A stretch of 1,089 bases of DNA from a phage. The DNA lies in the sequence record OR846392.1. One strand, given 5' to 3'. The position numbers were made by a program, and so were the translations under genes. The notes beneath the pieces were generated by a model. That model saw nothing but the letters and a program-made list of their open reading frames with translations. It was not told the origin of the DNA and did not search any database. This document shows positions 1 through 1,089 of this stretch, one piece after another. Position 1 is the first letter of the stretch. Each line of letters starts with the position of its first letter.

Positions 1-1
1 C

Positions 2-838
2 TCTGAAGGTATTGCCCTGACATTTCGTGTTCCTGAAGGAAATATAAAACATCCTTTGATTATCTTATGCCATGGGTTTTGCGGTATCAGGAATGTTCTG
101 CTCCCTTGCTTTGCGAATGCCTTCACAGAAGCAGGATTCGCAACGATTACTTTTGATTATCGAGGATTCGGTGAGAGTGATGGAGAACGAGGGCGTCTGG
201 TTCCTGCAATGCAGACCGAAGATATTATTTCAGTTATCAATTGGGCAGAAAAGCAGGAATGTATTGATAATCAGCGTATTGGGTTATGGGGAACATCGCT
301 GGGAGGGGGGCATGTCTTCAGTGCAGCTGCGCAGGACCAACGCGTAAAATGTATTGTCAGCCAGCTGGCTTTTGCTGACGGTGATGTTCTGGTTACCGGA
401 GAGATGAATGAATCGGAGAGAGCGTCTTTTCTATCCACGCTGAATAAAATGGCAGAGAAGAAGAAAAACACCGGGAAAGAGATGTTTGTGGGGGTTACAC
501 GGGTACTAAGTGATGATGAATCGAAGGTATTCTTCGAGAAAATCAAAGCCCGGCATCCCGAAATGGATATAAAAATACCTTTCCTTACGGTCATGGAAAC
601 GTTGCAATATAAACCGGCAGAGAGTGCAGCCAGCGTCCAGTGCCCAGTTTTGGTTGTTATTGCCGGCCAGGATAGCGTTAATCCACCGGAACAGGGAAGA
701 GCATTATATGATGCTGTTGCTTCTGGTACTAAGGAATTATACGAGGAAGCTGATGCATGCCATTATGATATTTATGAGGGCGCGTTTTTTGAACGTGTAG
801 TAGCTGTGCAGACACAATGGTTTAAACAATATCTTTAA
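2..838 (+). CDS. alpha/beta-fold serine hydrolase (dienelactone-hydrolase/esterase-like), 5'-partial; frame open to the left window edge, stop TAA at 836-838
   Basis: The frame is open from nt 2 with no in-frame stop upstream of the track's TTG at 56; upstream codons read SEGIALTFRVPEGNIKHP and run directly into LIILCHGFCG. HG oxyanion motif (His-Gly) at nt 71-76. Nucleophile elbow G-T-S-L-G at nt 290-304 (Ser codon TCG 296-298) within GLWGTSLGGGHVF. Probable acid residue in VLVVIAGQDSV (Asp codon GAT 671-673). Probable catalytic His in EADACHYDIY (CAT 761-763). Order and spacing HG...GxSxG...D...H over about 230 residues is canonical for this fold. Family placement is by motif recognition only; no search was run. 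Confidence 0.88.
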   Translation, partial: SEGIALTFRVPEGNIKHPLIILCHGFCGIRNVLLPCFANAFTEAGFATITFDYRGFGESDGERGRLVPAMQTEDIISVINWAEKQECIDNQRIGLWGTSLGGGHVFSAAAQDQRVKCIVSQLAFADGDVLVTGEMNESERASFLSTLNKMAEKKKNTGKEMFVGVTRVLSDDESKVFFEKIKARHPEMDIKIPFLTVMETLQYKPAESAASVQCPVLVVIAGQDSVNPPEQGRALYDAVASGTKELYEEADACHYDIYEGAFFERVVAVQTQWFKQYL

Positions 839-859
839 TTGTCAGTATTTATACGTTAA

Positions 860-907
860 AGGTCGTTGAAATTAACTTCCTGTTACGATGAGCCGTTTCA
901 ACGGCCT
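860..907 (+). repeat. Imperfect inverted repeat / potential RNA stem-loop: arms 860-871 (AGGTCGTTGAAA) and 896-907 (TTTCAACGGCCT), 24-nt loop
   Basis: The reverse complement of 896-907 is AGGCCGTTGAAA, which matches 860-871 at 11 of 12 positions. The single mismatch (T863 opposite G904) is a G-U wobble in RNA. Core 8-bp perfect repeat is CGTTGAAA (864-871) / TTTCAACG (896-903). It lies in the spacer between the hydrolase stop and the finO start. Confidence 0.55.
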
Positions 908-924
908 GCAGCGCATATTTTCAC

Positions 925-929
925 GAAGG
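925..929 (+). promoter_or_regulatory. Putative Shine-Dalgarno for finO (GAAGG), 11-nt spacer to ATG; alternative weak GAG at 933-935
   Basis: Purine-rich GAAGG is seen directly upstream of the ATG at 941. Spacing is slightly long for an optimal RBS, so this is a weak call. Confidence 0.4.
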
Positions 930-940
930 TCAGAGTAAGC

Positions 941-1089
941 ATGGCAGAGCAAAAACGACCGGTACTGACACTGAAGCGGAAAACGGAAGGAGAGACGCCT
1001 GTCCGCAGCCGGAAAACCATCATCAATGTCACCACGCCACCAAAATGGAAGGTGAAAAAGCAGAAGCTGGCCGAGAAAGCAGCCCGGGA
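941..1089 (+). CDS. finO: FinO-like fertility inhibition protein (RNA chaperone of FinP/traJ system), N-terminal 49 codons; 3'-partial, continues past window end
   Basis: ATG at 941-943 opens a frame that runs to the window edge: [49 protein letters not shown]. This matches, from memory, the lysine-rich N-terminus of FinO of F-like plasmids almost residue for residue. GC content is about 54% versus about 45% in the upstream gene. A purine-rich GAAGG at 925-929 lies upstream of the ATG. Confidence 0.85.

What the first reader, a model, noticed from the sequence alone, without database searches (positions are those of the whole stretch)
941..1089. Unlisted finO-like gene start at the 3' edge identifies the locus as the end of an F-like plasmid transfer region
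The ORF track misses this gene because it has no stop in the window. The translation [49 protein letters not shown] is, to my recollection, nearly identical to the N-terminus of FinO, the RNA chaperone that stabilises FinP antisense RNA and represses traJ in IncF plasmids. Against my memory of F FinO there may be two substitutions (Ala for Thr at residue 2, Val for Thr at residue 21), but I cannot verify individual residues. This sets the genomic context (conjugative plasmid or integrated F-like element) for everything else in the window.
Basis: partly seen in the sequence, partly recalled or inferred. Interest (0 to 1): 0.5.

Follow-up and report, generated by a model that had tools for sequence, protein, structure and literature searches.

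The report
Start of the finO gene (pO157-type)
The last 149 bases of the window are the start of finO, a well-known F-plasmid gene for an RNA chaperone that represses conjugation; the only twist is that the best-matching plasmids (E. coli O157:H7 pO157) have lost the RNA and genes FinO normally controls.

Summary
They match Pfam FinO_N at E = 9.4e-32, aligned from model position 1. The whole window is 100% identical to E. coli plasmid pNZRM3614 and differs by one base from pO157 Sakai. In those records the ORF runs to 186 codons (FinO_N plus ProQ/FinO domain; E = 1e-94 to the FinO crystal structure 1DVO). The two recalled substitutions (T2A, T21V) are exactly right against R100 FinO. Against F itself the differences are T2A and L20P. 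The predicted synteny holds: traX, a 286-codon hydrolase, finO, then the RepFIIA replicon. One caveat: the best-matching plasmids are non-mobilizable pO157 virulence plasmids. They keep only a traI fragment, traX, the hydrolase and finO. They have no FinP RNA or traJ leader, whereas the R100 positive control has both. A 99.7% identical copy, differing only in the intergenic leader, sits in a plasmid with a full tra operon. So the window alone fixes the F-like backbone position but not transfer proficiency. This gene is already known and annotated, and of low interest. In pO157 it is most likely a relic that may still act in trans.

The parts
941..1089 (+). 5' end of finO: codons 1-49 plus 2 bases of a 186-codon gene. 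It encodes the disordered basic N-terminal region and the start of the long helix, including Trp36 in the PPKWKVKK motif.
   Evidence: Translation. Pfam FinO_N E = 9.4e-32. NCBIfam FinO E = 3.9e-25. Residues 33-49 identical to 1DVO. Full gene of 186 aa in the identical record. Trp at residue 36, 15 K+R against 4 D+E.
839..940 (+). 102-nt intergenic leader between the hydrolase stop and the finO ATG. It has a weak Shine-Dalgarno-like AAGG at 926-929. It belongs to the hydrolase module, because homology to F-type plasmids that lack the hydrolase starts only at base 938. It carries every base that separates this window from its closest relatives (893, 894, 912).
   Evidence: Alignment with R100 and F. 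Matches confined to 938-1089. Difference positions. No significant fold, z = -1.69. No promoter- or terminator-like site here. No Rfam match.
1..838 (+). 3' 278 codons plus stop of the 286-codon alpha/beta-hydrolase gene that precedes finO in R100-type plasmids. The first 23 bases of the gene lie upstream of the window. RefSeq now names it a UilS-family N-acyl-homoserine lactonase.
   Evidence: Pfam Abhydrolase_1 E = 6.1e-34. NCBIfam NF047920 at 511 bits against a cut-off of 400 on the full-length protein. Annotations.

Best explanation
Bases 941-1089 are the first 49 codons of finO, the fertility-inhibition gene at the distal end of the F-like transfer region. The allele is the one carried by pO157-type virulence plasmids of E. 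coli O157:H7.

Established family mechanism (literature, not shown here): FinO's C-terminal ProQ/FinO domain, which lies beyond the window, binds the stem-loop and 3' tail of the antisense RNA FinP and of the traJ mRNA leader. This shields FinP from RNase E. The flexible basic N-terminal region encoded in the window (residues 1-44, with Trp36 as the key residue) catalyses strand exchange and FinP-traJ duplex formation. That blocks TraJ translation and shuts down the tra operon.

Inferred for this locus: in the plasmid family that matches at 0-1 mismatch, the tra region between the leading region and a traI fragment has been deleted, and neither FinP nor the traJ leader is present. FinO there has no target on its own plasmid. 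It is most likely an intact relic kept because it sits beside the RepFIIA replicon. It probably remains able to act in trans on the FinP of an incoming or co-resident F-like plasmid, since FinO is not plasmid-specific.
For: Shown here:
- Exact translation.
- FinO_N E = 9.4e-32 and NCBIfam FinO E = 3.9e-25.
- 100% nucleotide identity to pNZRM3614 and a 1-nt difference from pO157 Sakai.
- The full ORF is 186 aa with FinO_N plus ProQ/FinO domains, NF010317 at 360.7 bits against a cut-off of 136, and 1DVO at E = 1e-94.
- Synteny of traI fragment (471 aa), traX, hydrolase, finO, ANR regulator, nuclease, hha, repA2. R100 and p2461-1 have the same order with a complete tra operon.
- Trp36 and the basic N-terminus are conserved.
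- Rfam at gathering threshold finds FinP (93.4 bits) and traJ_5 (110 bits) in R100 but neither in the entire pNZRM3614. Neither appears at E <= 1 in the 22 kb from hok to repA2.
- No traM, traJ or traY is annotated and the typing is non-mobilizable.

From the literature:
- The FinOP mechanism (PMC7690428, PMC9977716).
- The N-terminal region and Trp36 are required for duplexing and strand exchange (PMC3105414).
Against: - Only 49 of 186 codons are in the window. The RNA-binding domain and the stop codon are inferred from an identical public record, not from the window itself.
- The origin of the window is not given. A copy with only 3 leader mismatches lies in a plasmid with a full tra operon, so the 'orphan' context rests on 2-3 nucleotides of ranking.
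- No expression or activity data exist for this allele. No sigma-70-like promoter was found in the leader, so transcription presumably comes from upstream.
- The host chromosome and any other replicons of the matching strain were not scanned for FinP-like RNAs.
Confidence: 0.95

Rival explanations
1. The window comes from a transfer-proficient F-like (R100-type) plasmid, where this finO works in the classical FinOP circuit together with FinP and traJ on the same plasmid.
For: p2461-1 carries traU through traI, then traX, uilS and finO, at 99.7% identity to the window. The hydrolase protein is identical and the first 49 FinO residues are identical. All 3 differences are in the leader. Most matching plasmids in PLSDB are typed conjugative: 3909 of the 5000 best.
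Against: The only 100% match, and all listed 99.9% matches, are 91-108 kb pO157-type plasmids. At positions 893-894 the window has the pO157 state (CC), not the p2461-1 state (TT).
Confidence: 0.1
2. On pO157, FinO is not a passive relic. It is retained under selection for another RNA ligand, for example the CopA-like replication-control RNA of the adjacent RepFIIA replicon, the AS-pc02 antisense RNA just downstream, or RepX-like RNAs of co-resident plasmids.
For: finO is intact in all listed pO157 records although its known targets on the same plasmid are gone. pNZRM3614 does encode structured antisense RNAs (CopA-like, sok, AS-pc02). Salmonella FinO has a second in vivo ligand, RepX, and controls the copy number of a cohabiting plasmid (PMC8136791). 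Retention of traI-traX-finO in tra-deleted plasmids has been called puzzling (PMC5102898).
Against: The pO157 lineage is young and nearly clonal, so intactness is weak evidence of selection. Closeness to the essential replicon explains retention by itself. FinO is reported to be highly specific for FinP-like RNAs (PMC9977716, PMC8136791). No binding was tested here.
Confidence: 0.15
3. The open frame is a chance ORF or a pseudogene fragment that ends shortly beyond the window.
For: Only 49 codons are visible, with no stop inside the window.
Against: FinO_N E = 9.4e-32. The identical record continues to 186 codons with both domains. It is annotated as intact FinO in every listed record.
Confidence: 0.01

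Closest known systems
FinO of pO157 (E. coli O157:H7 Sakai, BAA31821.1; RefSeq WP_000840472.1)
   Same: The 186-aa protein in the record that is 100% identical to the window is identical to Sakai FinO. The nucleotide sequence of the window's finO part is identical too. The single difference from Sakai is at base 912 in the leader.
   Different: Nothing in the coding part. There is one private leader base: C at 912 where Sakai, R100 and p2461-1 have G.
FinO of R100/R6-5 (WP_000139321.1), the functional reference repressor and a close relative of the 1DVO crystal-structure sequence
   Same: Same length (186 aa) and same domains. 178 of 186 residues are identical. Same gene order of traX, 286-codon hydrolase, finO, RepFIIA.
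   Different: There are 8 substitutions: T2A, T21V, T54A, S72T, L73Q, V160A, E164A, Q186K. The leader is 25% divergent (26 of 102 nt). R100 carries FinP, traJ and a complete tra operon, which pO157-type plasmids lack.
finO of plasmid F (interrupted by IS3)
   Same: The first 49 residues differ at only 2 positions (T2A, L20P), with 9 of 147 nt different.
   Different: F has no hydrolase gene; its finO ATG lies 54 nt after the traX stop, and homology to the window begins at base 938. F finO is inactivated by IS3 (PMC7690428, PMC5102898).
ProQ / RocC chromosomal FinO-domain RNA chaperones
   Same: They share the ProQ/FinO domain fold and 3'-terminator hairpin binding (ProQ 5NB9 at 3e-05, RocC 7RGU at 5e-05; PMC9977716).
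   Different: They are distant (E about 1e-5), lack the FinO_N extension encoded in this window, and bind many RNAs rather than FinP-like ones.

Membership tests
FinO protein (FinO/ProQ family, plasmid FinO subfamily) | FinO-specific N-terminal extension (Pfam PF12602 FinO_N) | tested here: met
   E = 9.4e-32, 109 bits against a cut-off of 25. Residues 1-49 align to model positions 1-49 of 63.
FinO protein (FinO/ProQ family, plasmid FinO subfamily) | ProQ/FinO RNA-binding domain (PF04352) C-terminal to the extension | tested here: met
   This part is not in the window. In the 100% identical record, residues 73-177 match PF04352 at E = 4.1e-27, and residues 33-184 match 1DVO at E = 1e-94. It rests on the assumption that the source continues as that record does.
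FinO protein (FinO/ProQ family, plasmid FinO subfamily) | Full-length score above NCBIfam NF010317 (FinO) cut-off | tested here: met
   The full-length protein scores 360.7 bits against a cut-off of 136. The 49-aa fragment alone scores 88.7 bits, below the cut-off, as expected for a quarter of the protein.
FinO protein (FinO/ProQ family, plasmid FinO subfamily) | Chaperone determinants in the N-terminus: basic flexible region and Trp36 | tested here: met
   Trp at residue 36 in PPKWKVKK, with 15 K+R in 49 residues. Their role is documented in PMC3105414.
FinO protein (FinO/ProQ family, plasmid FinO subfamily) | Position at the distal end of the tra region, after traX and before the RepFIIA replicon | tested here: met
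   Seen in matching records and in R100.
FinO protein (FinO/ProQ family, plasmid FinO subfamily) | Binds FinP/traJ stem-loops and inhibits F transfer | not testable with these tools
   This needs EMSA or mating assays.
Complete FinOP fertility-inhibition system | FinP antisense RNA and traJ 5' UTR on the same replicon | tested here: not met
   R100 control: FinP 93.4 bits, traJ_5 110 bits. The whole of pNZRM3614 has none at gathering threshold, and none at E <= 1 from hok to repA2. This applies to the best-matching plasmid, because the window itself cannot show it.
Complete FinOP fertility-inhibition system | A tra operon under TraJ control to be repressed | tested here: not met
   pNZRM3614 and pO157 Sakai carry only a 471-aa traI fragment and traX. 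They are typed non-mobilizable (PMC7175801). The feature is met in the 99.7% relative p2461-1.

The most novel reading that the evidence does not exclude
The intact finO on non-transmissible pO157 plasmids, which lack FinP, traJ and the tra operon, may be maintained because FinO has a second job there. One option is acting in trans to silence conjugation of incoming F-like plasmids. Another is binding a different structured antisense RNA, such as the CopA-like RNA of the adjacent RepFIIA replicon, AS-pc02, or RepX-like RNAs of co-resident plasmids, as reported for Salmonella pSLT FinO.
Probability: 0.15. Interest if true: 0.4.

Novelty: already known. Interest (0 to 1): 0.1.

Why it matters
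The main value is annotation. The finding correctly anchors the window to the traX, hydrolase, finO, RepFIIA backbone of F-like plasmids, and specifically to the pO157 virulence-plasmid lineage of E. coli O157:H7. It adds nothing new about FinO. The one open biological point is why an intact fertility inhibitor persists on a plasmid that can no longer conjugate and has no FinP. That point has already been raised in the literature for tra-deleted plasmids that keep traI-traX-finO (PMC5102898).

Tried and rejected
- Regulatory RNA or structure in the 102-nt leader. The imperfect inverted repeat 850-871/896-917 is 77% complementary. The fold is not better than shuffles, z = -1.69. The small hairpin at 891-905 is not conserved in R100. 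There is no Rfam match. Rejected as a feature.
- A dedicated finO promoter or terminator in the leader. The consensus scan found none between 839 and 940.
- Fetching F as AP001918 failed because it is not in the collection. NC_002483 was used instead.
- A literature search for 'orf286' plus finO returned nothing in the held library. From memory, van Biesen & Frost 1992 linked the upstream ORF to higher finO mRNA levels. I could confirm only that the paper exists, from its citation in PMC7690428, not what it says.
- The Salmonella FinO RIP-seq paper (PMC8136791) does not mention CopA, so it gives no support for CopA as a FinO ligand.
- The minus-strand ORF 898-1035 (45 aa, GTG) overlapping finO was treated as spurious. 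It lies antisense to a strongly supported gene and was not pursued.
- The first Python run failed on file layout and was fixed.

Full report
**Observation.** That is 49 codons plus two bases, with no stop before the window ends. The mechanical ORF list omits it because ORFs that run off the source are not listed. An open frame of this length could be chance, but the sequence match is not. Pfam FinO_N matches at E = 9.4e-32 (109 bits, cut-off 25), with residues 1-49 aligned to model positions 1-49. NCBIfam's FinO model matches at E = 3.9e-25. Residues 33-49 are identical to the first 17 residues of the FinO crystal-structure chain 1DVO. The nearest in-frame upstream stop is TAA at 857, and the only other in-frame start candidate is TTG at 866. 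Three things support ATG 941: the model alignment from position 1, homology to F-type plasmids that begins at base 938, and every record annotation.

**Identity of the locus.** The whole 1,089-base window is 100% identical to plasmid pNZRM3614 (NZ_CP032794.1, 88,687-89,775). It is 99.9% identical to pO157 of E. coli O157:H7 Sakai and to many other 91-108 kb E. coli plasmids. The single difference from Sakai is base 912, C here and G there, in the intergenic leader. In the identical record the ORF continues to 186 codons. It carries FinO_N (E = 1.4e-38) and the ProQ/FinO domain (E = 4.1e-27). It scores 360.7 bits on NCBIfam FinO against a cut-off of 136 and matches 1DVO at E = 1e-94.

**The remembered substitutions.** Over the full length there are 8 substitutions. 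Against the actual F plasmid (NC_002483), the N-terminus reads [25 protein letters not shown]. The differences there are T2A and L20P, and F already has Val21.

**Context.** In pNZRM3614 and pO157 Sakai the gene order is:
- toxB, then IS elements
- a traI fragment (471 aa)
- traX
- a 286-codon alpha/beta-hydrolase (window 1-838 holds its last 278 codons and the stop)
- finO
- an ANR-family regulator, a thermonuclease and hha
- repA2/repA1 of RepFIIA

R100 has the same distal order behind a complete tra operon.

The best-matching plasmids, however, are not conjugative. They are typed non-mobilizable and carry ehx, etp, katP, espP, stcE and toxB. They have no traM, traJ, traY or pilus genes. [quoted passage not shown]

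An Rfam scan of the complete pNZRM3614, with R100 as positive control, found FinP (93.4 bits) and the traJ 5' UTR (110 bits) in R100. It found neither in pNZRM3614, which has only CopA-like, sok, ALIL and AS-pc02 RNAs. A permissive scan (E <= 1) of the 22 kb from hok to repA2 also found neither.

There is a limit to this inference. Plasmid p2461-1 has full-length traU through traI, then traX, uilS and finO, and matches the window at 99.7%. Its three differences (893, 894, 912) all lie in the leader. The coding parts of the window are therefore identical between a plasmid with a complete tra operon and pO157. The assignment to pO157 rests on the 0-1 mismatch ranking.

**Mechanism.** The family mechanism comes from the literature and was not tested here. 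FinO's globular domain (residues 45-186) binds the lower stem and 3' tail of FinP stem-loop II and of the complementary traJ leader. This protects FinP from RNase E. The flexible N-terminal region, with Trp36 as the most critical single residue, is required for strand exchange and FinP-traJ duplexing. The duplex blocks TraJ translation and so represses the tra operon (PMC3105414, PMC7690428, PMC9977716). The window encodes precisely this chaperone module: residues 1-49, Trp36 in PPKWKVKK, and 15 K+R against 4 D+E.

For pO157-type plasmids I infer that FinO has no target on its own plasmid and is an intact relic adjacent to the essential RepFIIA replicon. Because FinO is the non-plasmid-specific component of FinOP, it could still repress an incoming F-like plasmid through that plasmid's own FinP. 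Salmonella FinO also binds RepX of an unrelated plasmid and affects its copy number (PMC8136791). That leaves room for a second ligand, but nothing here tests it.

**Leader.** The 102-nt spacer (839-940) has no significant fold (z = -1.69), no promoter- or terminator-like site and no Rfam match. Its imperfect inverted repeat is not conserved in R100. It differs from R100 at 26 of 102 positions, compared with 27 of 561 in finO and 34 of 861 in the hydrolase gene. About half of the matching E. coli records align only from base 938 onward. In F, the finO ATG lies 54 nt after the traX stop with no hydrolase gene. So the hydrolase and leader form a present/absent module that ends 3 nt before the finO start codon.

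**Novelty.** None. The gene is annotated as finO in every matching record, and the pO157 sequence has been public since the Sakai plasmid record AB011549. The retention of traI-traX-finO in tra-deleted plasmids has been noted before (PMC5102898). The finding is a correct piece of annotation with a contextual caveat. Interest is low.

Noticed in passing
window 1-838 (+): The hydrolase gene preceding finO passes NCBI's equivalog model for UilS-family quorum-quenching N-acyl-homoserine lactonases: 511 bits against a cut-off of 400 on the full 286-aa protein. Current RefSeq names it uilS. UilS was characterised in Serratia marcescens (PMC11633161). A putative AHL lactonase is therefore built into the distal tra region of R100-type F-like plasmids and is retained on pO157.
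   Followed up: partly
window 938-941: There is a presence/absence junction here. About half of the matching complete E. coli records align only from base 938 to 1089. In F, finO starts 54 nt after traX with no hydrolase gene. The hydrolase-plus-leader module ends 3 nt before the finO ATG, so the two plasmid classes give finO entirely different upstream sequence, including the ribosome-binding region.
   Followed up: partly
window 839-940: The leader is about 5 times more divergent from R100 (26 of 102 nt) than the flanking genes are (27 of 561 in finO, 34 of 861 in the hydrolase gene). It also holds all differences from the closest relatives: 912 against Sakai, and 893, 894 and 912 against p2461-1. 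C at 912 was seen only in pNZRM3614 among the listed records.
   Followed up: partly
L006 44129-44313 (-), about 240 nt downstream of the finO stop; also L004 36323-36506 (-): Rfam AS-pc02 (RF02876, 'antisense to pHK01_099') matches strongly, at 205 and 229 bits, opposite the small ANR-family regulator gene just downstream of finO, in both pNZRM3614 and R100. It lies outside the window.
   Followed up: no
E. coli complete-genome collection: The window's finO region is found in 3,529 of 5,426 complete E. coli genomes. The R100 finP/traJ-leader segment is found by blastn in 2,844. This is a rough hint that several hundred genomes carry finO without a detectable finP. The two searches differ in sensitivity, and FinP alleles are diverse.
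   Followed up: no
window 850-871 / 896-917: An imperfect inverted repeat (22-nt arms, 77% complementary, 24 nt apart) lies in the leader. It is not energetically unusual and not conserved in R100.
   Followed up: yes
window 898-1035 (-): A 45-codon GTG-initiated ORF lies antisense to the finO start. It is probably spurious.
   Followed up: no
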